IMG/VR virus record: IMGVR_UViG_3300016662_000124
Span: 1 to 36,589 of that record
Direction: 5' to 3' (one strand)
From: a virus
Taxonomy: Duplodnaviria > Caudoviricetes
DNA length: 36,589 nt
Shown: one piece after another, positions 1 to 18,360 of the stretch
How positions within the stretch are numbered: position 1 is the stretch's first letter
Layout of the letters: the number at the start of each line of letters is the position of its first letter
Translations under genes and position numbers: made by a program
The notes under the pieces: model-generated
What the model was told of the DNA's origin: nothing
The model's input: the letters and a program-made list of their open reading frames with translations, nothing else
Databases searched by the model: none

Positions 1-2523
1 ATGGCTCCATCGTGGACCGACTTTTTCAAATTGTTCAGCTATGCGTCTGAGCCAGACCCTCTTTCTCGTCGCAATGACCCAAGGCAGTTTACCTCTGCTG
101 GTGTAAGCCAACCAGAGGCACTCGGGGCTGATATCAATAGCGCACAAGTCAGCGGCGGCATGTCTAGCTATCGTCAGACCAATGACATGATTGACACAAC
201 TACGCTGTCAAATCGTGCCATGCGTTATAAAGAGTACGAACGACTTCGTAATGTGCCAGAAATTGAAATGGCCATGACGGTTTTTTCCGATGAAGCCTGC
301 GTTGCCGGTAATACCAAAATAGCAACTCCATTCGGTTTTGTAACAATAAAAGAACTAGCAGACAAAAGAGCCGATGAAAGATTTCTCGTTTATTGCTATG
401 ATTTTGAAAAAAATGACTACACCATCGGCTGGGGATTTGCACCTCGTTTAGTCAAAAAAGCCCGAACAGTAAGAATTGTACTCGATAATGGCAGCACCAT
501 CACAGCAACGCCTGATCATAAAGTCCTAAAACGAGACGGAACTTGGGTCGAAGCTGGCGAAATACAATTCGGCGACGAACTCATGCCATTCTATCGAATC
601 CCGGCAAATCAACGATTAACCAAAATGAAAGTCAATCAATTCCCAAGAATTATGACCTTCAATAAAGGCTGGATTCACGAAAAACAATTCATAGATGACT
701 GGCGCACCGGCAAAACAAATCCGTTTTATGAAAAAGTAAATCTTGCTTGCAGATTACTTGGCAGCGGATTGTCCACAAGAAAAACCATGCAGCAAATGGG
801 TCACGATTGGCACTCCATCGAAGATTGGATTCATAAAGAAGGATTTTCCTACCGTGAAATAAAAAGACTTCATTGGAAATATGAAGACCGAAGAAGAGTC
901 GTTGATGTTTCAAAAGGACCGGAAATGGATGTTTATGACATTTCCGTCGAAAAACATAAATGCTTTGCTACAGACTCCGTAATTCTTCACAACTGCCAAA
1001 GAGACGAAAACGGCAACATATTTAAAATTACCACGGAAAACCAAGATGTAAAAGAAGAAATTGAATGGCTTTTCCTCAATAGAAAAATGCTCAATTTCAA
1101 TCGGCATGGCTGGGCATGGTTCAAAAACTTATGCATATTTGGCGACTTATTTGTTGAAATCGTAATCAATCCTGACAACCCCAAGGAAGGCATCTATCGT
1201 TGTGTTCATCTTCCAGCCGAAACAATGTACCGCATCGAAACAGTCAAAAATCGTCTCATTGAATTCCAACAAAGCAAGGAAGGTCCAGACTATCAAGCAA
1301 TTGTCCGTGGCTCTGTCACAGATATGACCGATTCAGAAATAGCTCAAAGCACAGCAATTAGATTTGCACCAAGCCAGATAGTCCATTTCAGAATAGGTGA
1401 CGATAGAAAGACATTCTATCCATATGGTCAAAGCCTTATCGAACCCGCCCGTGCTCCAGCCCACAGTCTTCGACTTATGGAAGATGCAATGGTCGTTTAT
1501 CGACTAGTTCGAGCGCCTGAACGCAGAGTTTTTTATATTGATGTGGGTCAACTTCCACCATTCAAGGCTGAAGCATTTATTGATCGATTAAAAGATCAAT
1601 TCCGCAAAAGAAAAATTACAAGTAACAGCGGCAGTCCCGGCGCAAACCAAGTAGAAGAACGCTGGATGCCACCCGCTCAAGATGAAGACTACTGGTTACC
1701 TATTCGACCAAATAGCAACACCAGAATCGATACTTTGCCGGGAGCCGAAAATCTCGGCGAAATCGATGATGCAGTATATTTCCGAAATAAACTTCTTACT
1801 GCACTTAACTTCCCCAAGAATTATTTCAATAACGAAGACCCCGGTGTAACAAGAATCAGCTTGTCTGCCCAAGATGTTAAATTTGCCAGAATGATCGAAA
1901 GACTTCAAAGTCATTTTGAAGATGGATTATTAGAAATCGCAGAGAGACATTTGGCTCTCAGGGGTTTCCCTGAAGAATCCTATCGTGATCTTAGAGTCAA
2001 AATGACACCACCTAGCGATTGGCGTGAACTTTCCCGTGCTGAAGTTGTAAACACCCGTTATGGCAACGCTGGTACTCTCAAAAGCAGTCAGTTAATGTCG
2101 GATTTTGACATTATGACTAAAATATTGAAATATAACGAGGACGAAACCGAAGAAATCCTCGCCCGACTCAAAATACAAAAACTTGAAGACTTAAAATTGC
2201 AAGTTATTTCGCAAAACCCACAACTTCTCGGTGTCGGCATCCCCGGTCAACCAGAAGAAGCAGGAAAAGAACTCGGCGCAGAAGCTGGTGGACCCTCAGC
2301 AATGCCCGAACCCGGTATGGGAGAACCACCACCACCAGCAGGCGAAGCAGGCAGCGAATTGCCGGAACCAACTGAAGTTCCAGCAGAAAAGACTACCGCA
2401 GCAGAGCCATCAGAAATGGAAGAACCAAACGAAAAAGATATTAAAAAATATGATCTTGAAATCCAAAATTATGACTTGGAATCAGATGCAGAAAACATCG
2501 ACTTTAGCGTGGGTGACGAATGA
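1..2523 (+). CDS. T4-like portal vertex protein (gp20), interrupted by an intein
   Basis: gp20 hallmarks LRLMEDAMVVYRLVRAPERRVFYIDVG, EDYWLPIR, IDTLPGAENLGEIDDAVYF, DVKFARMIERLQ; first gene of the portal-protease-scaffold-capsid block; acidic Pro-rich C-tail. Confidence 0.95.
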   Translation: MAPSWTDFFKLFSYASEPDPLSRRNDPRQFTSAGVSQPEALGADINSAQVSGGMSSYRQTNDMIDTTTLSNRAMRYKEYERLRNVPEIEMAMTVFSDEACVAGNTKIATPFGFVTIKELADKRADERFLVYCYDFEKNDYTIGWGFAPRLVKKARTVRIVLDNGSTITATPDHKVLKRDGTWVEAGEIQFGDELMPFYRIPANQRLTKMKVNQFPRIMTFNKGWIHEKQFIDDWRTGKTNPFYEKVNLACRLLGSGLSTRKTMQQMGHDWHSIEDWIHKEGFSYREIKRLHWKYEDRRRVVDVSKGPEMDVYDISVEKHKCFATDSVILHNCQRDENGNIFKITTENQDVKEEIEWLFLNRKMLNFNRHGWAWFKNLCIFGDLFVEIVINPDNPKEGIYRCVHLPAETMYRIETVKNRLIEFQQSKEGPDYQAIVRGSVTDMTDSEIAQSTAIRFAPSQIVHFRIGDDRKTFYPYGQSLIEPARAPAHSLRLMEDAMVVYRLVRAPERRVFYIDVGQLPPFKAEAFIDRLKDQFRKRKITSNSGSPGANQVEERWMPPAQDEDYWLPIRPNSNTRIDTLPGAENLGEIDDAVYFRNKLLTALNFPKNYFNNEDPGVTRISLSAQDVKFARMIERLQSHFEDGLLEIAERHLALRGFPEESYRDLRVKMTPPSDWRELSRAEVVNTRYGNAGTLKSSQLMSDFDIMTKILKYNEDETEEILARLKIQKLEDLKLQVISQNPQLLGVGIPGQPEEAGKELGAEAGGPSAMPEPGMGEPPPPAGEAGSELPEPTEVPAEKTTAAEPSEMEEPNEKDIKKYDLEIQNYDLESDAENIDFSVGDE
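298..993 (+). mobile_element. Intein (232 aa) in the portal gene, no recognisable LAGLIDADG domain
   Basis: Block A CVAGNTKIATP, block B TATPDHKV, block F VYDISVEKHKCF, block G ILHN followed by +1 Cys; removal restores FSDEA-CQRDENG. Confidence 0.93.
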
Positions 2524-2771
2524 TAAATTTGGCTCAATTGCCTAATCTATTTTTCAAAAACCGCAAATTTTTGGACAGTTCCACAATTGCAGGTTGTGTC
2601 AAATGCTGCTTGACCATTCAATCAAAAGAAATAATATCATTTACAGACAAGGAACAAACCTGCATATGCCCCAAATGTGGCCATGATACTATCATTTTTG
2701 ACAATATGGAATTTGCAATCAATGAAAATTCTCTAAAAAAAGCAAATAATTATTTATTTAAGAAAAATTAA
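2520..2771 (+). CDS. Small Cys-rich zinc-ribbon protein
   Basis: CVKC and CPKC pairs; ATGA overlap with the portal stop. Confidence 0.7.
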   Translation: MINLAQLPNLFFKNRKFLDSSTIAGCVKCCLTIQSKEIISFTDKEQTCICPKCGHDTIIFDNMEFAINENSLKKANNYLFKKN

Positions 2772-3115
2772 CCCAGATTAAAACCATCAGCAGCAGGCGG
2801 TCTGATCTGTTCACCCTCTTCTTTACCTGATCGATCACCCAAACCCTTGTCGGTAAATCCACCATTCATTTTCTTCTTGATGTCAAGGAAGGCATCAAGG
2901 TTGTGTTTATTCAATATTTCTCGGATATCTGGGTCCATTCTTTGTTGATTTAGAAAAGCAACAATCATTTCCGGCTTGGTTTTTAACAAATGTTTCAAAG
3001 CCATGACCGCAATCGCTGTATTGTCGGCATCTTGATGTTTTTGATCCGGCTTTTTCTCTGCAATGTATGAGGGAGCATCCTCGTTTAAAGCAAGATATTC
3101 CATAAATGTTTTCAT
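2768..3115 (-). CDS. Hypothetical protein with capsid-targeting-like N-terminus
   Basis: MKTFMEYLALNE start; GAGGA SD upstream; TATATA box at 3149-3154. Confidence 0.8.
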   Translation of the reverse strand: MKTFMEYLALNEDAPSYIAEKKPDQKHQDADNTAIAVMALKHLLKTKPEMIVAFLNQQRMDPDIREILNKHNLDAFLDIKKKMNGGFTDKGLGDRSGKEEGEQIRPPAADGFNLG

Positions 3116-3279
3116 TTATTTCCTCAAATTCTCGTTCTATTGCATACTTATATACTAGGCAGGTGTGAATTTAAACATACGGCTGCAAAAATGGAGCATG
3201 AAGTATACATACTCTCATTAGCAAGCACCGTCAAGAATGTATGATTTGTAATTTAACCAGATCAGGGAGTTAATAGATT

Positions 3280-5112
3280 ATGAAGAGAAAACTAATTAGC
3301 TTCGATGCTTTTAGAAAAATCGAAGAATCATCATTTACAAACGCAGAAAACGAATTGATCCAAGCAGAGGAAGTGCTTGCAAAAACTCTGGGTGTTGAAC
3401 AACTAAATCTACACTCTTTCGGTGAATCAGATGTCACCTATCAAACCAACGATGGCAACTTCGTCCATGCAGTCTACACCATCGACAAAGACAAAGTCAT
3501 CCTCGAAAATATCCAAATGCTTGTTATTGATGAGCAAACAGAAAAGAAAGCAGCAAGGAAAGTGATCAGCGACATGCTTGATTCAATCCTTGAAAACAAG
3601 GACAAAAAAGCCAATGAACTTTTTGAGTCATACATGAATATGCCCTCAATCAAGCGTGAAATAAACGAAGCAGTCAGCATCGGTGGCTTCAAGCTCACAG
3701 TCAGCAAGCCCAAAGGACTTCGCAAGCCTTCCAAGCTCAAGGGAAGACACCAAAATCCCGCAGATGTCAAGAGGCGCATTGAATCCCGCATGAAAACCCT
3801 TCGTGGTCTCTCTACAGCAAAGAAGCAAACTGTCCGTGAAAAGGCTCGTAAAATTGCTGGTGCAGGACAAAAGAGAGTCTATGCACGCAAGATTAAGCCA
3901 AGTGCCATGAAAGAATGGCTCAATATGTGCGAAAATGTCATCGGATACCTTGATTTCAAGGCGACAGGATCACTCCTTCGTGAATCCACCATGAAAACCG
4001 ATAGCCAAGGCAATGTTGTCGCAGTCGCAATCCCAACCATTCAAAAGCGTAACGAAGGCAAAGTCCTTGACATGGGTCTTCAGACCATCGACAGCACAAG
4101 CAAAGTTCTTCGTGGCAAAATGAAGAAGATTCACGAAGACCAAAACTTCGTCAAGGCTATGGCTGACCTCAAGCGTTATAACAATATTAGCGATAGCTCC
4201 GCTCTTGAGGAAACCCTTGAAGCCATCATCAGCCGCTGGCCAGATGTTCTCTATGTCACCGAAAGCGAACTTGCCGAACAAATCGCAGTCGCTCTTGAAA
4301 CAGCAGGCGTTAAAAATTATGACGATGCAACCTGTGCATTCATGGCAGAAGCAATTCTTCGCTCCGCTCACAACGCCTACACCGAACGAGTCCGCAAGAT
4401 CGCAACCCTTGCTGGCGCAAAAAACGATGTGACATCCGAGTGCGAATCATGCTCAGATGCCTACAAGGATTTCGCCGAAGTCGCAGACCTAGCATTTGCA
4501 CAAATTGACGAAAGCACCGAAAACGAATTCAGAATTTTCTCTGATCTTTATAACGCTCTGCTTGAAGTTCATCGTGTCGCTGCTGAAATTGGCGACGAAG
4601 CAACTAGAATCGACGCTGCCGACTTCATGCAGGAATGTAGCGCAATTCTCAACAACAGGGCGGATGTTGATCTCAGTCTCGCAGAAGCAATTGCTGATTA
4701 CCTCGCTGATCTTCTTGAAGCAGCAGGCGAAGGCGATGCCGGAATCGATGCAAAACCTGAAATTAGCGTCGGCGGCGACCACAGCATGACCAAATACAAC
4801 GCAAAACAAGCAGCAGTATCCAGCAACAATACCGGTAGCTGGAAGGACGCTGCTCCTGTTAGCGATGGCAAAGATTACGACAAGGGTCTTGCAGACGAAA
4901 TGGGAAATGACGGTTTCAGCAACATCGCTTCAGGCGACACTTGGCCAGACATGAAGAACCCTTATGTCCCCAAGTCCATGATGTACAAGATGAAAGAAAA
5001 GTCAGTTTTTGACGATTCAGAAGACCTTGGAACCATGTCTTCCGGCGACACTTGGCCAAATCTCAAGAATCCTATGGCTCCCAAGCCTGTTATGCCAAAA
5101 CCAGTTGTCTAA
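3280..5112 (+). CDS. Putative prohead core / internal head protein (610 aa)
   Basis: Sits between portal and protease (position of T4 gp67/gp68); C-ending codon bias like gp22/gp23; K/R-rich segment; duplicated C-terminal SGDTWPxxKNP motif. Function inferred from position only. Confidence 0.65.
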   Translation: MKRKLISFDAFRKIEESSFTNAENELIQAEEVLAKTLGVEQLNLHSFGESDVTYQTNDGNFVHAVYTIDKDKVILENIQMLVIDEQTEKKAARKVISDMLDSILENKDKKANELFESYMNMPSIKREINEAVSIGGFKLTVSKPKGLRKPSKLKGRHQNPADVKRRIESRMKTLRGLSTAKKQTVREKARKIAGAGQKRVYARKIKPSAMKEWLNMCENVIGYLDFKATGSLLRESTMKTDSQGNVVAVAIPTIQKRNEGKVLDMGLQTIDSTSKVLRGKMKKIHEDQNFVKAMADLKRYNNISDSSALEETLEAIISRWPDVLYVTESELAEQIAVALETAGVKNYDDATCAFMAEAILRSAHNAYTERVRKIATLAGAKNDVTSECESCSDAYKDFAEVADLAFAQIDESTENEFRIFSDLYNALLEVHRVAAEIGDEATRIDAADFMQECSAILNNRADVDLSLAEAIADYLADLLEAAGEGDAGIDAKPEISVGGDHSMTKYNAKQAAVSSNNTGSWKDAAPVSDGKDYDKGLADEMGNDGFSNIASGDTWPDMKNPYVPKSMMYKMKEKSVFDDSEDLGTMSSGDTWPNLKNPMAPKPVMPKPVV

Positions 5113-5125
5113 GTAAAGGAGTTCA

Positions 5126-5809
5126 ATGGAAAACCAATTTCTGCTGGTTGATTGCTGCAACAACGGCGGATTTACCATGAATATGAACGAGTCAGTCTCC
5201 GATAGGGGACTGACTAAATTCCGAGGTAAATTCCAAGAAGCTGAAGCCGTCAACAAAAATAAAAGAATCTATCCTTATGCTGTTCTTGACGAAAATGTCA
5301 AAAAGCTTATGCCAATTATCCAAAATCGTGGTCTTATCGGCGAATTAGACCATCCAACAGACTCTATAATTCATTTTGAGAAATGCTCTCACATCGTTAC
5401 TAAACTATGGTGGGAGGGTAATAACCTGATGGGAGAAGGAGAAATCCTTAATACCCCTCATGGAAAAATTCTCAAAGCACTACTGAATGACGGCGTTCGT
5501 GTCGGCATCTCTAGCCGAGGCGTTGGAAATGGAAGAAGCGACGAGAATGGAATTTTAGTGATTGGTGAAAGCTACAAACTCATCACCTTTGATGCCGTAG
5601 CAGACCCAAGCACTCATTCGGCATTTCAGGAGAAATTGTCGAGTGGCAAGAAAGAAAATTATTCACCTCATCCTGCCCAAGAATTTCCGAAAAATTCGGT
5701 AAAAAACGAAAGCAGCAGCATACATAAGGTTAACAAAGAAGCCTTATTGGCATGTTTAGGTGGAATAATCGAACAACAAACAAGAAAAATCACAGCGAGG
5801 TTAGGCTAA
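5126..5809 (+). CDS. Prohead core protease (T4 gp21-like)
   Basis: NKNKRIYP, GELDHP, SH, ILNTPHG, GISSRGVG, FDAVADPS motifs; AAGGAG SD. Confidence 0.95.
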   Translation: MENQFLLVDCCNNGGFTMNMNESVSDRGLTKFRGKFQEAEAVNKNKRIYPYAVLDENVKKLMPIIQNRGLIGELDHPTDSIIHFEKCSHIVTKLWWEGNNLMGEGEILNTPHGKILKALLNDGVRVGISSRGVGNGRSDENGILVIGESYKLITFDAVADPSTHSAFQEKLSSGKKENYSPHPAQEFPKNSVKNESSSIHKVNKEALLACLGGIIEQQTRKITARLG

Positions 5810-6705
5810 TGGATAAGATCGTAGATGCACTTAAGAAACTATTGCCCCAAAGCGAAGTCAATGAGGTTGCGGAAGCCGTCAGCGAACTGCTTGAACAAGC
5901 CAAGGCGAACCTTGAGTCTGAATACAACCAGAAGCTTGAGGAAGCTTATGCCGAACTCACCAGCGAACTTTCCGAAGCAGAGAAAGTTGCAGAGCAGGGC
6001 TACGAGGAAGCATACTCAATCATCGGCGATCTTCGCAGCCGTCTTGAACTCCAAGGCGAAGAATACAAATCTGCCCTCAACGATGGCTACGAAGAAGCTT
6101 ATCAAATGTTGAAGGCAGAGCGTGAAAAGAACCAAAATCTTGAAGTTGAAATGTACGAGGAATACGACTCCAAACTCGTAGCCATGAAAGAATACATGGT
6201 TGACAAGATTAGCGACTTCCTCTCAATCAAAGGTCAAGAAATTTACGAACAAGCTCGTCGTGATGTTCTTAACGATCCCCGTCTTGCCGAACACAAGGTC
6301 GCACTCGACAAGATCGTTAACATTGCTTCGAACTATCTTTCCGACGACACCCTCGCATCAGCAAACACCGAAAAGCTACAGGAAACTTCCAAGCAGCTTG
6401 ACGAGGTTAAAGCTCAATTGCGTATTCTTGAAGCCCGTAACATCCGTCTCAGCACCGAAAACACCAAGCTGAACGAGAGCGTTCGCCAAGCCCAAGAACT
6501 CATCAGCGAAAGCCGCAAGTTTGTCACAAAGGAAAAGAAATACGCTGTCATCAGCGAACAGAAAGAAAGAGTTGAGAAAGCAAAGAATGTAACGGGGAGA
6601 GGCAATACATCCAGCGACAATGTTGTGATCTCTGAATACAACGCTTCCGCTGGTTCTGACATGGATCAACTGTTGGTCTTGTCGGGTCTGAAACAAACCA
6701 AGTAA
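5809..6705 (+). CDS. Prohead scaffolding/core protein (T4 gp22-like)
   Basis: Glu-rich coiled coil between protease and capsid; start placed at ATG 5809 (TAATG overlap, GAGG SD) rather than 5752. Confidence 0.85.
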   Translation: MDKIVDALKKLLPQSEVNEVAEAVSELLEQAKANLESEYNQKLEEAYAELTSELSEAEKVAEQGYEEAYSIIGDLRSRLELQGEEYKSALNDGYEEAYQMLKAEREKNQNLEVEMYEEYDSKLVAMKEYMVDKISDFLSIKGQEIYEQARRDVLNDPRLAEHKVALDKIVNIASNYLSDDTLASANTEKLQETSKQLDEVKAQLRILEARNIRLSTENTKLNESVRQAQELISESRKFVTKEKKYAVISEQKERVEKAKNVTGRGNTSSDNVVISEYNASAGSDMDQLLVLSGLKQTK

Positions 6706-6739
6706 ATTTTACTCCTTTTAGCTAAAGAATAGGAACTTT

Positions 6740-8176
6740 ATGAACGCAAACTCAAGATTTTTGAACGAGGCTAGGGAGCTAGAAACTCGTTGGAAGCAGA
6801 CCGGTCTCCTCGAAGGCATTCAGGACCGATATGTCCGCTCCGCAACCGCAGTTCTGCTCGAAAACCAAAGACTGATGAACGAAGTCAGCACCGATACTGG
6901 CGATGTCGCCCAGTTCAAGAGAATTTCAATTCCCCTTGTTCGTCGTATCTACCCACAGCTTATCGCCAACAAGATCGTATCCGTCCAGCCTTTGCTTGGC
7001 CCCACCGGTCTTGTCTATTATCTCCGCTTCCGCTACTCCAGCAACAAGGGCGCTACCCGTGGCGCTGACAACATCGGCGGTTTCCCCGGTGATGATGCCA
7101 ACTCATTGATGCAGAAGGCTGACGGTACTGCTAATCTTGACATTTTTTACTCAAGCCAGTTCGTTCAGAACGAAACAACCAGCACTGACGCTGGCGCAGG
7201 CGTTTTGAGCGTATTCTCACCTCTTGAACACACTCCAATCCTCCCCGGCACAATTACCGGCACTATTTATGATGGTTCTACTGCTATCCAGACCTTCACG
7301 GTTTCTGCTGGCGGCGTTTTCACCTTCAACGATATCGGCGTTCCTGAGCCTAAAGTTACCGCTGGTACTCTTAATACCACTACTGGCGAACTAACCCTTA
7401 CTTGGAACGGCGCTCCCGGTCCAAATCACGCTGTCGTCTCCTATGAGATGAACATGGAGTGCAATCAAGACCTTCCTGAGATCAACCTTGTCGTTGAATC
7501 AGAAGAAATCGCTGCTAAGACCCGTAAGCTCAAGGCTGTTTGGTCTTATGAAGCACAGCAAGACCTCCGCTCACAGCACAATCTTGATGCTGAAGCCGAG
7601 TTGACCGCTGTTCTCGCTCAGGAAATCAACCTCGAAATCGACCGTGAAGTCCTCACCGACCTCCGTAACAACGCAGGCACCGTGTCCGCTTGGGACTTCA
7701 ACACCGCTCTTGGCGAAACCATCAAGGAAAAGTACGAAAGCCTTTATGTTAAGGTTGTCGAAATTTCCAATGTCATCCATAGGAAGACTCTCCGTGGTGG
7801 CGCTAACTGGATCGTGACCAGCCCAGAAGTTGCTTCAATCTTTGAAACCGCTACCGCTGGCTTCGCTCCTGCTCCTTCCGAAACCTTCACCTCAAGCCTT
7901 GGCATCCAGTATGTCGGCACCGTGAACAATCGTTGGAGACTCTACAAAGACCCCCTCTTCCCAAGCAATCAACTTCTCATGGGATACAAGGGTGATAGCT
8001 ACATGGATAGCGGATATTTCTACTGTCCTTATGTTCCTCTTACTCAGACCCCAGTTGTCCTTGATCCAGAGTCCTTCTGTCCTCGCAAGGGCATACTTAC
8101 CCGTTACGGAAAAAAATTATTACGCGAAGGTGCCAAATTCTATGCGAGACTTTCTATCGCAAATTTCGTAATATAG
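6740..8176 (+). CDS. Major capsid protein (T4 gp23-like)
   Basis: IPLVRR, VQPLLGPTGL, AKTRKLKA, QDLRSQHNLDAEAEL, EINLEIDRE, FYCPYVPL, TRYG motifs. Confidence 0.97.
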   Translation: MNANSRFLNEARELETRWKQTGLLEGIQDRYVRSATAVLLENQRLMNEVSTDTGDVAQFKRISIPLVRRIYPQLIANKIVSVQPLLGPTGLVYYLRFRYSSNKGATRGADNIGGFPGDDANSLMQKADGTANLDIFYSSQFVQNETTSTDAGAGVLSVFSPLEHTPILPGTITGTIYDGSTAIQTFTVSAGGVFTFNDIGVPEPKVTAGTLNTTTGELTLTWNGAPGPNHAVVSYEMNMECNQDLPEINLVVESEEIAAKTRKLKAVWSYEAQQDLRSQHNLDAEAELTAVLAQEINLEIDREVLTDLRNNAGTVSAWDFNTALGETIKEKYESLYVKVVEISNVIHRKTLRGGANWIVTSPEVASIFETATAGFAPAPSETFTSSLGIQYVGTVNNRWRLYKDPLFPSNQLLMGYKGDSYMDSGYFYCPYVPLTQTPVVLDPESFCPRKGILTRYGKKLLREGAKFYARLSIANFVI

Positions 8177-9635: not shown

Positions 9636-9686
9636 AATTTGTTTGATAACAGTTTCAAATATAAAATTCTGTGGAAGATTAAAAAA

Positions 9687-10543: not shown

Positions 10544-10546
10544 TGT

Positions 10547-10957: not shown

Positions 10958-11150
10958 AACAGAAGAAAACAAATATATTGTTATGGATAAAAATGACAAT
11001 ATTATTTCCAAATGGTCTAAAGAAACGATTGATGATGCTGGCGGTGTGGAAAAATGCATTGAGCGTTTTAAGAAAGCTAATCCTAAATCAGAAATTGAAA
11101 TGGTTCCAGCACCAGTTCCAGAACCAGCACCAGCACCAGTTAATGGTTGA
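10941..11150 (+). CDS. Small hypothetical protein with Pro-Ala tail
   Basis: AAGGAG SD before ATG 10941; PAPVPEPAPAP tail. Confidence 0.7.
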   Translation: MKYKIKTEENKYIVMDKNDNIISKWSKETIDDAGGVEKCIERFKKANPKSEIEMVPAPVPEPAPAPVNG

Positions 11151-11178
11151 AAATTTTAATTAAATACTCTAATATTGA

Positions 11179-11811: not shown

Positions 11812-11827
11812 ACAAATATAGTTGAAA

Positions 11828-11851
11828 ACACGCACCTAAGCGAGTGCGTGT
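11828..11851. terminator. Hairpin between convergent genes
   Basis: ACACGCAC/GTGCGTGT 8-bp stem. Confidence 0.65.
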
Positions 11852-11866
11852 CAAATAAATATCAAT

Positions 11867-14800
11867 CTATATACCGAACCAATGTTTCTTGATATCTTCA
11901 TAATTTTTCATAAATTCAGAAAATGATTCACTTCTAACTGCTGGCAGATCGTTAGCAACAGCAGAGGTCATTTCATCATCGAGTTGACGAAGTTCTCTTT
12001 GAGCATCTATGATTCTCTGTAATAATTCTGGATCATGTTCCTTTTTATGCAATTCTTTTCTATACTTTTGTATAATCGCTGCTAGTTCCCTTTTCCTTTG
12101 AACTTTCTTATAAAGTTGTTCATCAATTCCTTTAGCCAAGGTGTAATCGATGTTCACGGGATGATTGGTGTTAATTCTATAAATTCTTCCTTCGCTTTGT
12201 TCGGCGCTTTCTGGAGTCCAATCAAAATCATTTACAACCATATTTCTGGCTTCATTGGGGAAGTCAATTCCTGTTCCGCCCATTTTAAGTGACATGACAA
12301 GAACTTTTGCGTTGGGGTCTTGGCCAAAAACATCCTTAACTCTTTTTCTTTCGCTCTTTTTGGTCATAGCGAGATAAGTAATTACCTTAAATTGAGGGTT
12401 AACTTGTCTGAGTGCGGCAGATAGTTTGCTAACAAGCTGGTTGGCGGATTCGATGAAATTCGTGAATACAACGACTTTGCTCTTTGAATAATTGTTTGTA
12501 GGATCATCCATGTTTTCACGAACAATTTTGATTACTTTATTGACTGTTTGATCTGTTTTGAGTTGTGCTATAACCTCCCTAGCGGCAATAAGTTTAGAAA
12601 GTGGGTGACTAGGATCATCATATGTTCTGACTTTTTCCATATACTTACGATTAAATTCCGCCTCATCGATTGGACGAGCGGTAGGTTCTGCTCTGTTTAG
12701 AGTCGGCATATCACGAAGGTCTGATTTGCTTCTTCGTACATAAACGCCTGACAGGTTAAGCCATTTGTTGAGTCTTTCAGCAGCACGATATGATTCATCA
12801 CTGTTATCATCAATCTCATAGGCTCCTCTATATCCTGAAGGGCTTGCGCCTGCAAAATCTCTCTTGAATTTGCTTTCTTTAATTTTTCCAAGGTGATGCT
12901 TGAGGATTGCGAGTTGATTTTTAACATCCATTGGTTTGTTAGCTGAAATTGTAGCGGATGCACCCCAGACTGTTGGAATATTTTCAATAACTTCGGCAAT
13001 ATTCTTGCTTCGTTTGGATGTCTCATGTTTAAGTTTGTGCAGCTCATCAAAAATTGCGATTCCGAAGTTTGCTCTTTTGCAATTTTCTAATACATCAGGT
13101 AATTTTTTCCCAGCGGAAAAATTTTCGTAGTAAAGAACTGTCCACTTTTTAGGTTGAGAACCATCTGTGCTGATGTTCTGGGTTTCTTCTGATCCGCAAA
13201 CCGCTTTGATGGTATTGATCCATTGTTCTTGTGTGGCTTTGAGAGTGACGATGAGTGTTGGGTGTTGATCCTCTTTCATTCTCAAAGCGGCAGCAGTAAC
13301 AAGTTGTGCGGTTTTGCCGAATCCTGTCTCATCGCCAAGAATGGCATGATGACGACCATAGAGGAATGCAACGCCTTCTTTTTGTTGATCATAAAGTTCG
13401 TAAGTGCTTTCAGGTAATTTTTCGTCAATATCTCGGCTAATTTGTTGTAGGTTTTCGCCCTGATCATGTTGCCCAGTATATTTTTGCTTTTGCATACGAC
13501 CGCTATCAAGTTTTGTGCTCAATACGGTTCTTAATTCTTGAACATCATAACCAAAACGCTTGAGGAGTTCACCAAAAATTGCATATTGTTGGAAATTACC
13601 ATCCACCTCATAAAAGTAACCGTTTTTATTCCATTCGTATTCAGGGAAGGTATATTGAATTAACTCTTTGATAAAACCTTTTTTACCAAGGTTTCCAGCA
13701 AGTTCTGGATGATTGTACTGAACTTGAACTTTCATTTTGGTGCCGGGAAGATCAGAAAAATTGATAACCCTGATGATTCTGTGACTTTCTCTTCCTTCTG
13801 CGTCGGTGGGCGGAGAAGTAGGTCTTGTTTCGGATTCAGGCGAGGAAGCTGGGGATGTTCTCTCAAAATTCTCCTGAGCAAAGTGATCAAGAGGACTGAC
13901 ATTAAGACCTTTATGAGCGATTACATCTCTGACCTGATCAAACATTCTTCTATTTTGAAGGTCAATAAGGATAATTCCCGGTCTTCCTGCTTGATGGTCA
14001 TCTACTGAGTAGGAAGCGGCTCTTGGAGTAAGTCCAGCACTCTTGATTGCTGGATAAGGACTTCTATCGAAAGGAACATTGAACTTTACTTTGAGTTTTT
14101 CTCCAAAACGAGTTGAAACTTTACCAAGTAATTCAACTTCAGGTGCTGCTGATGCTGCTGATGGTTCTTCGGCAGCACCTCCCGGCGTTGAACCTGCTGA
14201 TGCTGTCAATGCGCTAGGACTTTGACCGGGAGCATGTCCGGTAACTTCTAAATTTTTTCTTGTTTTAAGTGTTTCAATAATATCATGAAGAACGCTGGTG
14301 TGGATGTGTACGATGTGCGGATTGTCACGATCTTTAGAAAATTTCTTGAATCTTTCGTAACCTTCATTTCCAAATCTGTCGGTGACAATCTGTGCGCCTT
14401 CCTGCCTCATTTTTTCATCAACGATTCTGTTGATTGCTCTCATATCGCCTGTATCGACTCCATGAGGGATATAAACTCTTACTTTGCCGTAGGTGAGTGG
14501 TTGGTCGCCATAAATGTGAATCTTGTCTTGATCAATTTGATCTGAACCTGTGGCACTAGCAGCCCTAGGCATATTGTTGAAATCTGTGGTGACTAAGCGG
14601 CTTATTTCGGCATAATTTGGCACTTGTGTATTTCTATATTTGCTTAACATACGAACAAAAGTTGTTGCGATTCTTGCTGGTATGGCTGATTGTGAAAGAT
14701 AGTGCGAAAGATTTTGGTAGGTATCCCAATCTGATTTATTAAATCCATAATCATTGTATTCGTTTGGAACGCCTCTTGCTGCCATATCAGCAACTGTTCT

Positions 14801-14887
14801 TTTAAGCAATTCAATACCGGGACCGGAAACCAATGCTTCTTCAGTTTCAACTAGACGGAGTAATTTCCATTCCAATAGTGCGCTCAT
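11867..14887 (-). CDS. SNF2-like SF2 helicase/ATPase with a ~490-aa N-terminal extension
   Basis: LYDQQKEGV, GDETGFGKT (I), DELH (II), SAT (III), VVVFTNF (IV), GGTGID (V), QSEGRIYRI (VI). Confidence 0.9.
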   Translation of the reverse strand: MSALLEWKLLRLVETEEALVSGPGIELLKRTVADMAARGVPNEYNDYGFNKSDWDTYQNLSHYLSQSAIPARIATTFVRMLSKYRNTQVPNYAEISRLVTTDFNNMPRAASATGSDQIDQDKIHIYGDQPLTYGKVRVYIPHGVDTGDMRAINRIVDEKMRQEGAQIVTDRFGNEGYERFKKFSKDRDNPHIVHIHTSVLHDIIETLKTRKNLEVTGHAPGQSPSALTASAGSTPGGAAEEPSAASAAPEVELLGKVSTRFGEKLKVKFNVPFDRSPYPAIKSAGLTPRAASYSVDDHQAGRPGIILIDLQNRRMFDQVRDVIAHKGLNVSPLDHFAQENFERTSPASSPESETRPTSPPTDAEGRESHRIIRVINFSDLPGTKMKVQVQYNHPELAGNLGKKGFIKELIQYTFPEYEWNKNGYFYEVDGNFQQYAIFGELLKRFGYDVQELRTVLSTKLDSGRMQKQKYTGQHDQGENLQQISRDIDEKLPESTYELYDQQKEGVAFLYGRHHAILGDETGFGKTAQLVTAAALRMKEDQHPTLIVTLKATQEQWINTIKAVCGSEETQNISTDGSQPKKWTVLYYENFSAGKKLPDVLENCKRANFGIAIFDELHKLKHETSKRSKNIAEVIENIPTVWGASATISANKPMDVKNQLAILKHHLGKIKESKFKRDFAGASPSGYRGAYEIDDNSDESYRAAERLNKWLNLSGVYVRRSKSDLRDMPTLNRAEPTARPIDEAEFNRKYMEKVRTYDDPSHPLSKLIAAREVIAQLKTDQTVNKVIKIVRENMDDPTNNYSKSKVVVFTNFIESANQLVSKLSAALRQVNPQFKVITYLAMTKKSERKRVKDVFGQDPNAKVLVMSLKMGGTGIDFPNEARNMVVNDFDWTPESAEQSEGRIYRINTNHPVNIDYTLAKGIDEQLYKKVQRKRELAAIIQKYRKELHKKEHDPELLQRIIDAQRELRQLDDEMTSAVANDLPAVRSESFSEFMKNYEDIKKHWFGI

Positions 14888-14921
14888 ATTTAAGTAATCC
14901 TCAATAAAATGCCTATGAATC

Positions 14922-14927
14922 TATATA
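14922..14927. promoter_or_regulatory. Palindromic TATATA late-promoter-like box between divergent genes
   Basis: Lies in the 58-bp gap between ATG 14887(-) and ATG 14946(+), both with GAGG SDs; similar boxes recur upstream of other genes. Confidence 0.5.
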
Positions 14928-14945
14928 CATTGTGAGGTAAATAAA

Positions 14946-15221
14946 ATGAAGAGTTTTGATGAATTTTTGACAGAAGCAAAGGCGCAATCTGCTCCTAAAA
15001 AAAAGGACACGGTTGGAAGTAGCAGGATTAAGTGTGTTCAATCAGTAGTAGATCATATTAAGAAAGCTTTAATGGATTATGATATCACAACGAGAAAATA
15101 TGTTTGGAATAAATTGAACAGTAAAGAGGGCGAGCATTTAATGGATCAGATTGTGCGTTATCCGAAAACCAGTATGTCGATGAGTCAATTTACCAAATTG
15201 GTGATTGACACCAAAAAGTAA
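14946..15221 (+). CDS. Small basic protein with capsid-targeting-like N-terminus
   Basis: MKSFDEFLTE start; GAGG SD. Confidence 0.8.
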   Translation: MKSFDEFLTEAKAQSAPKKKDTVGSSRIKCVQSVVDHIKKALMDYDITTRKYVWNKLNSKEGEHLMDQIVRYPKTSMSMSQFTKLVIDTKK

Positions 15222-15285
15222 TTGCAAACCTGTTTATGCTGTGGTAGATTATTTCAAGCACAATGATGTGCCAGAGGATTTACCT

Positions 15286-15573
15286 ATGCAAAAGACGCTT
15301 GTTGCTGGTTTCGCCTTTTTGGCTATGACTCTTTTTGTTGGAAATGCCGAAGCTTGTCTTTTCAAGAAGAAAGTTAAGATTTGTTCTTCCTGCAAAACTG
15401 GCAGTACCACAACCGTGACTGCTGGTAAGGCTCCTAAGAGCAGCGAAAAAGCGCCGGCTCCTGCTCCGCAAGCTGTGAAGAATGAGGACAAGACAAAGGC
15501 ACCGGCTCCTGCTCCGCAAGCTGTGAAGAATGAGGACAAGAAAAAGGCACCGGCTCCCAACTTGAAGAACTAA
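15286..15573 (+). CDS. Small secreted Lys/Pro/Ala-rich protein
   Basis: GAGGA SD; signal peptide ending AEA; Cys-containing mature N-terminus; tandem repeat tail. Confidence 0.8.
   Translation: MQKTLVAGFAFLAMTLFVGNAEACLFKKKVKICSSCKTGSTTTVTAGKAPKSSEKAPAPAPQAVKNEDKTKAPAPAPQAVKNEDKKKAPAPNLKN
15454..15557 (+). repeat. 48-bp coding tandem repeat (2 copies plus a partial)
   Basis: CCGGCTCCTGCTCCGCAAGCTGTGAAGAATGAGGACAAGA(C/A)AAAGGCA at 15454 and 15502, partial at 15550; encodes PAPAPQAVKNEDK(T/K)KA. Confidence 0.95.
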
Positions 15574-15582
15574 GTTTTTCGC

Positions 15583-15613
15583 AATCAAGCCCAAGGTTTT
15601 CTTGGGCTTGATT
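15583..15613 (+). terminator. Strong hairpin / terminator immediately upstream of bS21
   Basis: AATCAAGCCCAAG/CTTGGGCTTGATT 13-bp stem. Confidence 0.75.
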
Positions 15614-15633
15614 CATTTTGTAGGGCGTTTTAT

Positions 15634-15804
15634 ATGAAGATGACTATTCGTGATCGTGAGCCAATTGGTTCTGCTCTGCGCCGATTTAAAAAATTGCTTG
15701 ATCGTAGTGGCATTTTAAAAGAAATTAAAAAACACGAAGTTTATCAAAAGCCTTGCGAAAAAAGGCGACAAGCAAAATATAAAGCTAGTTTAAAACGCTC
15801 TTAG
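15634..15804 (+). CDS. rpsU: 30S ribosomal protein bS21 (56 aa; below the ORF-track length cut-off)
   Basis: Hand translation MKMTIRDREPIGSALRRFKKLLDRSGILKEIKKHEVYQKPCEKRRQAKYKASLKRS; has the bS21 signature E...ALRRFK...G...E...Y.KP.E.RR. Confidence 0.93.
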   Translation: MKMTIRDREPIGSALRRFKKLLDRSGILKEIKKHEVYQKPCEKRRQAKYKASLKRS

Positions 15805-16099
15805 TATATCTTTTTATATTTTTCTTTTTGTCGTGGGTTCCGAGCATATGGCCCACTCGATAATCTTTTGAAAAAATCCATTTGATAGTACCCATGACAA
15901 TGCCATCTTGTCCGTCTTCATATCCTTGAATGAATTGTTCTGATGTGATTTGTCCAGTATATTGGTCAGAAGACGGCGTTGGTTCAACATCCGTCTTCTG
16001 ACTTCCGTATGGATTTATGTCGTTCGTATTTCTAATTGTAAAAACAGTTCCAAGGACTACTAAAAGAAACATTATAATACTGACCAGTATTTTTCTCAT
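15785..16099 (-). CDS. Membrane-anchored hypothetical protein
   Basis: N-terminal hydrophobic helix after MRK; AAGGA SD. Confidence 0.7.
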   Translation of the reverse strand: MRKILVSIIMFLLVVLGTVFTIRNTNDINPYGSQKTDVEPTPSSDQYTGQITSEQFIQGYEDGQDGIVMGTIKWIFSKDYRVGHMLGTHDKKKNIKRYTKSVLN

Positions 16100-16115
16100 A
16101 GCTTCCTTTGAACAA

Positions 16116-16123
16116 TATAAATA
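16116..16123 (+). promoter_or_regulatory. T4-type late promoter consensus TATAAATA
   Basis: Exact T4 gp55 late box about 45 nt upstream of ATG 16169; TATATA also at 16135-16140. Confidence 0.55.
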
Positions 16124-16168
16124 TGCTTGAGACATATATAAAAATAAGATTATTTTGTGGAGATTTTT

Positions 16169-16717
16169 ATGAGTTTTGAACAGTATTATTTGATACGAGA
16201 AGCAGTAGTCCCTATGACTTTGTCAGAAAATGTTGTCAATATTTCTGAAAATTTAAAGTATCACATGGACAATGGTCTTTCAATTTCTGACAGCGTTTTT
16301 CGTATTGGTTCAGATGCTTGGCGTGATTTAGTGAATGAGGTTCGTTCTTTGCATGAATCTGGACAAATAAAACTGAATGAAAATGATGAGTTTATTATTT
16401 TAACTGAGGCTGGAAGGACAGGAGTTTACCAAGGTAAACAAGTGCCTTTGGATAGTCCCAAGCGAGGTGGTCCTAAGAAGTTTTATGTGTTTGTAAATTC
16501 TGGTCGTAAAAATGCCGAAGGGCGTGTAGTTGCCAAGAAGGTTGCTTGGGGCGATCCTAATCTAAGTGTAAAGAATCAATCTGATAAAGCTAGGAAGAGT
16601 TTCTTGGCTCGTCATAAATGTTCAACCAAGCATGATCGCACGACACCGGGATGGTGGGCTTGCAATGTCAATCGATATGCCAAGCAGCTTGGTTTAGTTA
16701 GTACAAAGAAGTGGTAA
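16169..16717 (+). CDS. Conserved T4-like phage protein with a basic C-terminal domain
   Basis: YQGKQVPLDSPKRGGPKKFYVFV...WGDP...RKSFLARHKC...WWAC, recalled from large aquatic myoviruses; GGAG SD. Confidence 0.75.
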   Translation: MSFEQYYLIREAVVPMTLSENVVNISENLKYHMDNGLSISDSVFRIGSDAWRDLVNEVRSLHESGQIKLNENDEFIILTEAGRTGVYQGKQVPLDSPKRGGPKKFYVFVNSGRKNAEGRVVAKKVAWGDPNLSVKNQSDKARKSFLARHKCSTKHDRTTPGWWACNVNRYAKQLGLVSTKKW

Positions 16718-16718
16718 T

Positions 16719-16979
16719 ATGTTGCCTTTTGAGCAAAAGAGATTAAGTAAAAAAAATGTAGTTAGGACATTTTCCGAAGATGTTCCTAATGAGGAACTGA
16801 AATGGCATCGTGATGCTGAGGATAGAGTTGTAAAAGTGATTGGCGAGACAGATTGGAAGATTCAATTTGACAATTATTTGCCTCAAGTTCTTGAGGGCGA
16901 GGTAAGAATTCCTGCTGGAGTATATCACAGGGTGATTAAAGGAACGGGTAACCTTAAAGTAGAAATACGAATGGATTGA
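16719..16979 (+). CDS. Small cupin-like protein
   Basis: WHRDAEDR and IPAGVYHRV cupin motifs 1 and 2. Confidence 0.7.
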   Translation: MLPFEQKRLSKKNVVRTFSEDVPNEELKWHRDAEDRVVKVIGETDWKIQFDNYLPQVLEGEVRIPAGVYHRVIKGTGNLKVEIRMD

Positions 16980-16981
16980 TT

Positions 16982-17287
16982 ATGACATTCAAGGAATGGT
17001 TGTTTAATCTTGAAGAAGGCGGTTTTTGCAAAAAAGGCGCATGTGTTTACGGCGGAACGGTTCCTACTCCAAGCAATCATAAACCTCAAATGAGAGTACC
17101 CACACCAAGAACAGCAAAGATTCGTCGTCCTCACGACGGTATTCACTTATATGGTCTTGGTGGCGGTCCAGTAAGCGGTGGCGGTGGTGGTGCCATGGTA
17201 GGTGGAGGAGGCGGTGGTTCTGCTCCAATGGCTGGTGGAGCCCCTCCCGCTGGCGGTGGTGCTCCTTTGGGTATGGTTAATAAATAA
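16982..17287 (+). CDS. Gly/Pro-rich protein with capsid-targeting-like N-terminus
   Basis: MTFKEWLFNLEE start; poly-Gly C-terminal half. Confidence 0.7.
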   Translation: MTFKEWLFNLEEGGFCKKGACVYGGTVPTPSNHKPQMRVPTPRTAKIRRPHDGIHLYGLGGGPVSGGGGGAMVGGGGGGSAPMAGGAPPAGGGAPLGMVNK

Positions 17288-17624
17288 TGTCATAAAAAGG
17301 GAATGAGAGTTCAAGGTCCAGATATTTTCCATGTAAATCTGATGAGACAATTCTTTTTATGAATGACTCATGAAATATTACAGACTCATTTCTGCCAAAT
17401 AAATTTGGTTTTTCGGATTTTATAATACAACATATTTTTTCATTTGCTAAAAAAAATTCATGAATTTTTTTGAAATCATGATCGATTTCTAAAACAATTA
17501 TAGCATTTCCATTGTAAGCTGAGTCTGGAATATTGACGATTGTATAGTCTACACAAGGAATTGTTTTACAAACTTGAGACCAACTTTTACAATCACGCCA
17601 TTCACATTTTTTTGTCATTGTCAT
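17277..17624 (-). CDS. Hypothetical protein
   Basis: ORF filling the gap; start chosen at the ATG after GGAG. Confidence 0.55.
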   Translation of the reverse strand: MTMTKKCEWRDCKSWSQVCKTIPCVDYTIVNIPDSAYNGNAIIVLEIDHDFKKIHEFFLANEKICCIIKSEKPNLFGRNESVIFHESFIKRIVSSDLHGKYLDLELSFPFYDIIY

Positions 17625-17668
17625 GTGCAGTAAAACTCCATTCGATAATTTTTTGCACAAATAACATA

Positions 17669-18241
17669 TCAGTCGAAGTATTGCAACATACAAGCTGGAA
17701 TTTTTGGCGCAACATATTTGAGAAGTTCAAAAGCGCCTTTGTTTGTAAAAACTATTTCGTGTCGATCTCTGGACTTATGAGCTTCGCAGTCACAGTCTAA
17801 TGAATTAAAATATTCTGCAATAACTCTGGTTCCTTCTTCGCCAAACTTCTGTGTGCGGAGATATGCTTTTCTTTTGCTTTTTCTTCCTGCGTCAAGAAAC
17901 CAAGTCATCCAAGCTTCATCCGAAAGCAGTTCAAGCATTTCTTTGTTGATATATTTCTCGCCGTCAATATAAAATTTTGCGTAAATATCGTTGAATATGG
18001 GGAAAGCAACGCTGTAACATCTGAATGTGTTTTTGTCTTTCTTGACTGTATTTTGATCTATTTTAAAAAAATCAGAAAGTATTTCGATTTTATATTCAAG
18101 CCAAGTTCTGTTGCTATCTCTCATAGCCAAGTAACAATTCTTACCACGGTCAGGTTTGATGACCGACGAACCACCCAAAATTGTGCCATAAAGTGTTTGT
18201 TTTTGAGCTTCTTTTAATATAGGACCACTTTGATAGGTCAT
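17669..18241 (-). CDS. LAGLIDADG_2-like protein with degenerate catalytic motifs
   Basis: LYGTILGGSSV and AWMTWFLDAG align with GxLLGDG and AxWFMDDG; YLRTQKF matches L.T..F; GAGG SD. Confidence 0.75.
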   Translation of the reverse strand: MTYQSGPILKEAQKQTLYGTILGGSSVIKPDRGKNCYLAMRDSNRTWLEYKIEILSDFFKIDQNTVKKDKNTFRCYSVAFPIFNDIYAKFYIDGEKYINKEMLELLSDEAWMTWFLDAGRKSKRKAYLRTQKFGEEGTRVIAEYFNSLDCDCEAHKSRDRHEIVFTNKGAFELLKYVAPKIPACMLQYFD

Positions 18242-18360
18242 TTTACACCTCAATTTATGTATTGTTTTTTCGCAAAATTATGTCCAAATTTTGAATTATA
18301 AAAAACAAATTGGTTTTATTCAAAGATATATATGATGATTCTTTTTCCTAAGGAGAAATT

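What the first reader, a model, noticed from the sequence alone, without database searches (positions are those of the whole stretch)
15634..15804. Unannotated phage-encoded ribosomal protein bS21 of Planctomycete-like type
Seen: a 56-codon ORF absent from the supplied track with the full bS21 signature, preceded by a 13-bp hairpin and lacking a clear SD. Known: bS21 is the ribosomal protein most often found in phages, sits near the anti-SD, affects initiation, and has been linked to late infection, largely in phages predicted to infect Bacteroidota or Proteobacteria. Inference from recall: DREPIG.ALRRFKKL..RSG and KPCE resemble Gemmataceae/Planctomycetota bS21. The C-terminus is short. The protein could retune host ribosomes towards the mix of strong-SD and near-leaderless late mRNAs seen here.
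Basis: partly seen in the sequence, partly recalled or inferred. Interest (0 to 1): 0.8.

Follow-up and report, generated by a model that had tools for sequence, protein, structure and literature searches.

The report
Huge phage's planctomycete-type ribosomal protein bS21
A very large freshwater phage carries a shortened copy of the ribosomal protein bS21 that most resembles those of Gemmatales planctomycetes; this is a known kind of phage gene that likely tops up host ribosomes during infection, and its main value is as a likely pointer to the host of a phage group with no assigned host.

Summary
The ORF (15634-15804, +, 56 aa) is bS21: Pfam 59.6 bits against a cut-off of 27. It lies in the head-gene region of a T4-like phage whose relatives reach 533-595 kb. 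Its best matches form one Planctomycetota order, inferred to be Gemmatales: 50-65% identity in 115 of 121 genomes, against at most 44 bits in 250 other genomes of the phylum. The tail is 14 residues after KPCE against 19-33 in host copies. The slot lacks bS21 in 6 of 6 relatives that keep it. The 13-bp hairpin is the inherited terminator of the upstream gene, which sits behind a conserved sigma70-like promoter. Read-through, early-type expression is therefore more likely than late. Relatives carry two other bS21 lineages, one genome carries two copies, and one complete relative has none detected, so the gene is accessory. Phage bS21 is well known, and planctomycete-like cases are already tabulated (12 of 900 in PMC9723584). 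No CRISPR link and no RNA data were found. Verdict: a new member of a known kind, useful as a host pointer.

The parts
15634..15804 (+). bS21 (rpsU) gene, 56 aa, Gemmatales-like, short C-terminal tail
   Evidence: Pfam, NCBIfam and PHROG hits; PDB sequence hits; model with helices 11-25, 27-33, 40-54 and top Foldseek hit 4ybb_AU
15622..15625 (+). weak SD-like AGGG, 8 nt before the ATG
   Evidence: sequence; -3.9 kcal/mol; host anti-SD canonical in 5 of 5 genomes
15583..15613 (+). 13-bp hairpin; homologue of the terminator that ends the upstream gene in relatives, with the T-run interrupted here
   Evidence: homologous hairpins in L171 and L158
15286..15573 (+). upstream gene, 95 aa, signal-peptide-like start (by eye) and a 45-nt repeat; likely co-transcribed with bS21
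   Evidence: positional homologues in L171, L158, L259, L145
15222..15250 (+). sigma70-like promoter candidate (TTGCAA, 17 nt, TG-extended TAGATT; 8 of 12 matches, below the scan's threshold of 9)
   Evidence: read from the sequence; not listed; sites of 10, 11 and 9 of 12 at the same position in L171, L259, L158
15785..16135 (-). convergent gene whose 3' end overlaps the last 20 nt of bS21; conserved flank of the insertion slot
15750..15766 (-). terminator-like site inside bS21 on the opposite strand (may end the convergent transcript)
   Evidence: pattern match only
14946..15221 (+). conserved hypothetical gene, left flank of the slot
   Evidence: homologues at 34-50% in relatives
1..8176 (+). 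T4-like head module: portal with intein, prohead protease, major capsid protein (phage context)
   Evidence: capsid 80.9% identical to LR756511.1, 595,163 bp

Best explanation
The phage carries an intact bS21 gene, likely captured from a Gemmatales planctomycete host and inserted behind the terminator of an existing gene; it is likely expressed early by read-through from a sigma70-like promoter, and the protein is predicted to enter host 30S subunits in place of or alongside host bS21, keeping them able to initiate translation during infection. Shown: bS21 identity, closest match to one Planctomycetota order, empty slot in relatives, homologous terminator with an interrupted T-run, conserved promoter-like site, short tail. 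Inferred: host, direction of transfer, read-through, timing, ribosome entry, benefit. The missing tail (the protein ends at about E. coli residue 57 of 71) would remove the part that runs beside the SD helix, so a modest change in mRNA preference is possible but is not needed for this reading. Odds on the host taken separately: Gemmatales about 0.7, some Planctomycetota about 0.8.
For: Family. Donor: 115 of 121 genomes of the order match, best hits 50-65% and up to 68.5 bits, against at most 44 bits in 250 other genomes of the phylum. The order is named through P0194 (NCBI 'Gemmataceae bacterium'), identical to the copy in L138. In a DNA search of window 1-18500 against 267 genomes of the order, 24 of 29 listed places are this gene, at 69-80% identity. 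Trees place it with Gemmatales rows and away from the non-planctomycete rows. Residence in the phage: GC 35.7% and GC3 24.6%, like the window (38.5%, GC3 33.1%) and unlike host genes (41-70% GC); contigs of two studies carry it joined to downstream phage genes, and a 2025 run of a third study holds it with 1 difference. Conservation: three relatives at 77-80% identity keep the core and the same short end. Insertion: 6 of 6 relatives with the slot lack bS21. Promoter and terminator. Repeated gain: G396 carries a second, Planctomycetia-like bS21, and an unrelated small viral contig (L223) carries a 53-aa Gemmatales-like copy beside a terminase small subunit gene. Ribosome entry of a phage bS21 was shown for pelagiphage HTVC008M in E. 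coli (PMC6375957, passages).
Against: The host rests on one 56-aa gene. No CRISPR spacer match was found in 267 genomes, in a search that scored only 2 candidates per genome. Other phage genes gave only weak leads: MetK of the nearest relative has 3 organism-named hits among 120, two Planctomycetota and one Phaeobacter. The host table for a 595,163-bp genome in PMC7162821 ranks Proteobacteria 4.0%, Parcubacteria 2.3%, Planctomycetes 2.2%. Tree support is modest: SH-aLRT 90, not starred, beside rather than inside the Gemmatales rows; in the fuller tree it joins three divergent accessory-type rows. One AT-rich enterobacterial copy (L011) scores 148, within the range of the Gemmatales-type rows (139-177). 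The window's promoter candidate matches only 8 of 12, and the hairpin still passes as terminator-like. A complete relative (G386) has no bS21 detected, so any benefit is optional. In PMC6375957 ribosomes with the viral bS21 kept only about 5% activity in vitro in E. coli, which fits inhibition as well as support.
Confidence: 0.5

Rival explanations
1. Specialised ribosome: the tail-less bS21 displaces host bS21, loosens the anti-SD and so favours the phage's leaderless late mRNAs over host mRNAs.
For: A leaderless-like class exists in this phage group (27 observed against about 2.7 expected). Loss of bS21 moves the anti-SD and eases leaderless mRNA exit in E. coli (PMC10491246, abstract). Removing the bS21 C-terminal region changes mRNA selectivity in Flavobacterium (PMC9976891, passages). 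A second, independent viral Gemmatales-like copy is also short (53 aa, L223).
Against: The same leaderless class is present in relatives without bS21 in the slot and in G386 with none detected. Only 2 window genes show the motif at 4-6 nt. In Flavobacterium the truncation favoured strong-SD mRNAs, the opposite direction. G396's host-like copy is 69 aa, not short. Chains of 57-58 aa occur in solved ribosomes (that these are native Firmicutes lengths is recalled). PMC7550191 found no clear relation between phage and host RBS consensus (passages).
Confidence: 0.2
2. Takeover by poisoning or counter-defence: the phage protein enters ribosomes and lowers host translation, or replaces host bS21 removed by a defence.
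For: Viral bS21 cut in vitro translation to about 5% in E. coli (PMC6375957). An early-type promoter fits takeover. The branch to the phage group is long.
Against: That result was in a foreign host. The phage needs the same ribosomes. The core is well conserved towards the host (16 invariant columns over 13 rows).
Confidence: 0.13
3. Passenger: a captured host gene that is weakly expressed, nearly neutral and eroding from its 3' end where it overlaps the convergent gene.
For: Absent from the slot in 6 of 6 relatives. Weak SD, hairpin upstream, 20-nt overlap with a convergent ORF.
Against: Open frame with 59.6 bits. Relatives 20-23% diverged keep every core motif and the same end point within 2 residues. 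Base composition has adapted to the phage while the protein stayed host-like.
Confidence: 0.12
4. Artefact: a host fragment mis-assembled into the phage contig.
For: No laid contig bridges the hairpin and the gene start in one piece; pieces abut at 15640/15642.
Against: Contigs of 2,402 and 5,565 nt from two studies join bS21 to downstream phage genes. Composition is phage-like, and no host copy exceeds 65% protein identity. The break sits at codon 3, where a known variant (P0004) differs.
Confidence: 0.03

Closest known systems
bS21 of the freshwater Bacteroidetes phages, clades a-e (Chen et al. 2022, PMC9723584)
   Same: Large freshwater T4-like phage; bS21 in the broad vicinity of head genes; host-like protein.
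   Different: Here the gene is on the same strand as the capsid gene and 11 genes (7.5 kb) downstream, not reversed between portal and protease. It is Gemmatales-like, has Leu where Flavobacterium has Tyr54, sits behind a sigma70-like promoter, and relatives are about 440-595 kb rather than 293-331 kb.
Planctomycete-like phage bS21 entries in Chen et al. 2022, Tables S9 and S11
   Same: 12 of 900 published bS21 phage sequences have their nearest bacterial bS21 in Planctomycetes, one in Gemmatales; Planctomycetes is listed among predicted hosts.
   Different: Those are contigs of 1.5-35 kb assigned by best hit (the Gemmatales one is 1,808 bp); none is discussed in the main text.
Pelagiphage HTVC008M bS21 (Mizuno et al. 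2019, PMC6375957)
   Same: Host-derived phage bS21 of moderate identity to the host copy (54% there, up to 65% here); the only one I found with ribosome entry shown.
   Different: Alphaproteobacterial host, cultured phage; nothing is tested for this protein.
Canonical Gemmatales bS21 (rpsU)
   Same: Shares the DREPIG-ALRRFKKL-RSG and KPCE motifs; 50-65% protein identity, up to 80% DNA identity over parts.
   Different: Two residues shorter at the start and 5-19 shorter at the end; aromatic residue at position 49; weak SD where most host copies have a clear one.
Divergent bS21 of related huge phages (LR756511.1, G396, G401)
   Same: Same phage group by capsid (81-87%); passes the PF01165 cut-off.
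   Different: 81-95 aa, next to a peptide deformylase gene, only 7 of 20 residues align with P0001; a separate, older lineage.

Membership tests
bS21 (PF01165 / TIGR00030) | Score above the curated cut-offs over the whole model | tested here: met
   59.6 vs 27 bits, model positions 4-54 of 55; 54.4 vs 28.95
bS21 (PF01165 / TIGR00030) | Small, basic, helical protein matching solved bS21 chains | tested here: met
   19 K/R and 6 D/E in 56 aa; helices 11-25, 27-33, 40-54, pLDDT 82.6; best Foldseek hit 4ybb_AU, E 8.3e-4, TM 0.55, rmsd 6.1, so the fold match is modest
bS21 (PF01165 / TIGR00030) | Binds the 30S platform next to the 16S 3' end | not testable with these tools
   needs ribosome purification or cryo-EM
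Phage-encoded bS21 | Lies among viral genes, without host rpsU neighbours, on an independently assembled contig | tested here: met
Phage-encoded bS21 | Expressed during infection | not testable with these tools
   no RNA holder listed
Chen 2022 Bacteroidetes bS21 phages (clades a-e) | bS21 on the reverse strand within about five genes of terminase, portal, protease and capsid | tested here: not met
   same strand as the capsid gene, 10 ORFs between them (paper text)
Chen 2022 Bacteroidetes bS21 phages (clades a-e) | Aromatic residue at Flavobacterium Tyr54 | tested here: not met
   7jil_z 5-52 matches query 4-51; assuming no gap, Tyr54 falls on Leu53; the alignment itself was not displayed
Chen 2022 Bacteroidetes bS21 phages (clades a-e) | Closest bacterial bS21 in Bacteroidetes | tested here: not met
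   7jil_z is the weakest of 32 PDB hits; best matches are in the Gemmatales-like order
Gemmatales-type bS21 | Higher similarity to this order than to the rest of the phylum and to other phyla | tested here: met
   one exception among non-planctomycetes, L011
Gemmatales-type bS21 | Branches inside Gemmatales | tested here: inconclusive
   inside a 97/83 clade of Gemmatales plus 7 other planctomycete rows; sister to Gemmatales at SH-aLRT 90; AU test could not be run
Gemmatales-type bS21 | Tail of 19-33 residues after KP[CS]E | tested here: not met
   14 residues
Divergent bS21 beside peptide deformylase in related huge phages | 81-95 aa, in the order 380-aa ORF, bS21, small ORF, deformylase | tested here: not met

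The most novel reading that the evidence does not exclude
A group of 440-600 kb phages with no assigned host infects Gemmatales planctomycetes and has taken up bS21 at least three separate times (two types coexist in G396). The window's version is an early-expressed, tail-less bS21 that builds specialised ribosomes for the group's leaderless late mRNAs, in a host lineage that itself often keeps several bS21 copies.
Probability: 0.15. Interest if true: 0.72.

Novelty: new member of a known kind. Interest (0 to 1): 0.36.

Why it matters
Phage bS21 genes are common and described, so the gene alone is ordinary. Three things add value. (1) It points to Gemmatales as the likely host of a widespread group of very large phages; for a 595,163-bp genome of this group the published host table was undecided. 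(2) Its context suggests early, host-polymerase expression, unlike the late-stage model of PMC9723584, so phage bS21 may not have one role. (3) Close relatives with and without the gene, two other bS21 lineages in the same phage group, and cultured members of the likely host order (recalled) make the open question 'does phage bS21 change mRNA choice or only maintain ribosomes' testable with a natural short-tail variant.

Tried and rejected
IMG/VR scan with P0001 alone: 32 pattern hits, none confirmed. With alignment A2: 29 loci, no close relative of P0001; two carry Gemmatales-like copies (L222, L223). Metagenome scan with A1: 80 loci kept, best 68%, host-like copies only among the top rows translated; the scan covered 5 of 64 parts. 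GenBank phages: 19 weak hits, all under 45%. CRISPR spacer search: short matches in G535, G313 and G259 do not lie in repeat-spacer arrays. No RNA holder listed. Rfam: no match in the window, L303 or L305. No tRNA in the window. Independent host markers: MetK of G374 inconclusive; DUF3568 atlas hits viral or Pseudomonadota; the upstream secreted protein gave a 0.81 Planctomycetota cluster, a lead only. Idea that the window's phage also holds the older bS21: open; the locus was not found in G386 (complete) or in G374, G384, G407, G414 (fragments), in a search without a positive control, and alignment A3 found it in 2 of 24 records. Sister grouping with accessory-type bS21 not accepted: those share only 17-23 identities with P0001 against 27-31 for canonical copies, and the branches are long. 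Coverage holes in runs X4-X6 prove nothing. AU tests and formal statistics for the motif were not obtained; the motif counts were summed by hand. Earlier findings of the scan: none. Literature: the terms 'ribosomal protein S21' + 'Gemmata' + 'phage' gave 0 papers; searches listed no paper on a Gemmatales-infecting huge phage with bS21, judged from titles and abstract starts; subscription journals and bioRxiv supplements are not covered.

Full report
Observation. The stretch 15634-15804 (+) is an open frame of 56 codons. It passes the curated cut-offs for bS21 in Pfam (59.6 bits, cut-off 27) and NCBIfam (54.4, cut-off 28.95) and hits the PHROG S21 family. The three best PDB alignments shown have no gaps. 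A model built on a 13-row alignment has three helices (pLDDT 82.6), and its best Foldseek match is chain 4ybb_AU, named S21, with a modest TM-score of 0.55. The 13-bp hairpin is real (15583-15613; 0 of 200 shuffles as stable). The SD is weak (-3.9 kcal/mol).

The phage. The window holds a T4-like head module (portal with intein, protease, capsid), homing endonucleases and no tRNA. The capsid protein is 80.9% identical to that of LR756511.1 (595,163 bp). In IMG/VR 379 stretches encode a relative; the best 80 are 82-96% identical, on contigs up to 532,729 bp. CheckV rates the nearest long one (136,667 bp) 31% complete, which implies about 440 kb. The six best-holding runs are freshwater metagenomes of two studies, one of them possibly the source. 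Contigs from both studies join bS21 to downstream phage genes, and a 2025 run of a third study holds 15645-15910 with one difference. No single laid contig bridges the hairpin and the gene start. GC (35.7%) and GC3 (24.6%) resemble the window, not host genes at 41-70% GC.

Where the gene came from. A GTDB scan with a related protein (P0003) put two Planctomycetota MAGs first. In the order of the first, 115 of 121 genomes match P0001, best hits 50-65% and up to 68.5 bits. In 250 other genomes drawn from the phylum the best score is 44 bits. Four loci titled 'Alcaligenaceae' carry the same type; the genome of two of them (G005) is listed within this order, so those titles look wrong. One AT-rich enterobacterial copy scores within the range of the Gemmatales-type rows. 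At DNA level bS21 accounts for 24 of 29 listed matches between window 1-18500 and 267 genomes of the order; the rest of the window gave 2 weak matches. In a 107-row tree (72 columns) P0001 and its three relatives form a clade (98/92) inside a 97/83 clade of all 35 Gemmatales rows plus 7 other planctomycete rows, while the 24 non-planctomycete rows form their own clade (99/96). After dropping 13 rows (5 old phage-type, 3 accessory-type, 4 long branches, 1 duplicate) and adding 7 host copies, the group is sister to Gemmatales at SH-aLRT 90, below the tool's star. The AU test could not be run. So the Gemmatales affinity is well supported by similarity and moderately by trees; nesting inside the order is not shown.

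Host. bS21 is the only firm link. No spacer match was found, in a search of low sensitivity. MetK of the nearest relative and two atlas look-ups were inconclusive. The supplement of PMC7162821 lists a genome of 595,163 bp with host undecided: Proteobacteria 4.0%, Parcubacteria 2.3%, Planctomycetes 2.2% of genes. A second member of the group (G396) carries an independent Planctomycetia-like bS21, 41% identical to P0001 over 41 residues, which favours planctomycete hosts for the group.

Anatomy of the locus. Five relatives keep homologues of both flanking genes (L145, L147, L158, L171, L178) and a sixth, with a 96% identical capsid, keeps the left flank and the secreted gene (L259); none has bS21 there. 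L171 and L158 have the homologous hairpin at the end of the secreted gene, with A and T runs on both sides as in a two-way terminator. In the window the stem persists but the T-run is interrupted, though the scan still calls it terminator-like. Directly after the stop of the left flank gene, L171, L259 and L158 each have one sigma70-like site (10, 11 and 9 of 12); the window has an 8-of-12 site with an extended TG at the same place (15222-15250, read). Such sites arise by chance 0.4-0.8 times per region, so the shared position is the evidence, not the score. Only 20 nt separate hairpin and ATG, with no late motif. The simplest reading is insertion behind an existing terminator and expression by partial read-through from a host-type promoter. 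This is inference; no RNA holder is listed.

bS21 across the phage group. Of 47 capsid-related records searched with PF01165, 2 pass the cut-off: G396 (two copies) and G401 (one); most records are fragments, but G386 is complete and has none. Five further records found through a neighbouring gene have none. LR756511.1 has one, 190 kb from its capsid gene. These belong to an older 81-95-aa lineage beside a peptide deformylase gene, found in five loci and barely alignable to P0001. The group thus shows three bS21 lineages and an apparent absence: the gene is repeatedly gained and dispensable.

The short tail. P0001 has 14 residues after KPCE; 50 host loci (duplicates included) have 19-33. P0002, P0005 and P0006 (77-80% identical, context unknown) end within two residues of the same point. 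By the ungapped register the protein stops at about E. coli residue 57, before the 13 C-terminal residues that PMC7550191 places beside the SD helix, and it has Leu at the place of Flavobacterium Tyr54. The host's anti-SD is canonical in 5 of 5 genomes and 40 of 50 host rpsU loci have an SD, so the Bacteroidetes sequestration model does not carry over. An unrelated viral contig has a 53-aa Gemmatales-like copy, but G396's copy is 69 aa, and 57-58-aa chains exist in solved ribosomes.

The mRNA mix. Across 345 genes of the window and five relatives, TA[AG]ATA ends 4-6 nt before the ATG 27 times against about 2.7 expected from other offsets; 3 of 33 genes with the motif within 12 nt have an SD against 177 of 312 others (summed by hand; homologous genes are not independent, starts are first-ATG guesses, and an AT-rich motif in the SD slot excludes an SD partly by construction). 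That this is a T4-like late promoter giving near-leaderless mRNA is recalled and inferred.

Mechanism. Most likely (0.5) the protein enters host 30S subunits and keeps them initiation-competent, as an optional aid. Rivals: specialised ribosomes for leaderless mRNA (0.2), inhibition or counter-defence (0.13), passenger (0.12), artefact (0.03).

What is known. PMC9723584: read parts 1-3 of 6 of the main text and supplement sheets TS1, TS11 and search hits in TS9; 12 of 900 published bS21 phage sequences have a planctomycete best hit, one Gemmatales. PMC6375957, PMC7550191, PMC9976891, PMC7162821, PMC13157829, PMC10914622: passages, plus supplement rows for PMC7162821 and a supplement search for PMC7550191. 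PMC10491246: abstract only. PMC6375957 reports 8 viral contigs with two ribosomal protein genes; I did not check whether any has two bS21.

Verdict. A real phage bS21, a new member of a known kind. Interest 0.36, mostly for the host pointer and the testable short-tail variant.

Noticed in passing
G396:C1:260-523 (L254) and G396:C1:88271-88480 (L258:1486-1695): One 343-kb phage contig carries two unrelated bS21 genes: the group's old divergent type and a 69-aa Planctomycetia-like copy.
   Followed up: partly
L112, L254, L255, L270, L271: Conserved block in related huge phages: 380-aa ORF, divergent bS21 (81-95 aa), small ORF without Pfam hit (ribbon-helix-helix-like by eye), peptide deformylase. 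Two of the five bS21 barely pass the Pfam cut-off (27.6, 27.7 bits), so they are easy to miss.
   Followed up: partly
L299-L306, L313 (Gemmatales genomes): Many genomes of this order hold two or more bS21 copies. A divergent accessory family (68-92 aa) shares a conserved stretch of about 35 nt directly before the ATG; in G264 at least four listed copies exist, and the two fetched are flanked by long repeats that look like integron cassette sites (label recalled). No Rfam match.
   Followed up: partly
L223:2425-2586: A 53-aa Gemmatales-like bS21 between a 651-aa terminase-like ORF (by eye, no Pfam hit) and a terminase small subunit gene on a 5.8-kb viral contig unrelated to the window's phage.
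   Followed up: partly
window 19869-20405 and 26075-26278; G374, G382, G384, G386: TA[AG]ATA ending 4-6 nt before the ATG is strongly enriched across the phage group, suggesting a class of near-leaderless late mRNAs.
   Followed up: partly
window 29468-31748 (-): Cluster of an McsA-like protein (NF053706, 76.8 bits, below cut-off), a MotA/ExbB-like membrane protein and two partner ORFs.
   Followed up: no
window 1-2523, 8242-9635, 17669-18253: Intein in the portal gene and three endonuclease-like genes (TnsA-like/DUF7487, endonuclease VII-like, LAGLIDADG) near the head module.
   Followed up: no
L400:292-1299; L402:8358-9485; L404:893-1540: The nearest long relative (G374) encodes a volactin-family actin-like protein (219.7 bits), SAM synthetase, two SAM decarboxylases and a SAM-lyase-like protein.
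   Followed up: no
window 15440-15545: 45-nt tandem repeat in the upstream secreted-like gene; the equivalent genes in relatives also have Pro/Ala/Lys-rich repeats. Assemblies break here.
   Followed up: no
L004-L007: Records titled 'uncultured Alcaligenaceae' carry Gemmatales-type bS21, and one of their genomes (G005) is grouped in that order, so the titles look wrong.
   Followed up: partly
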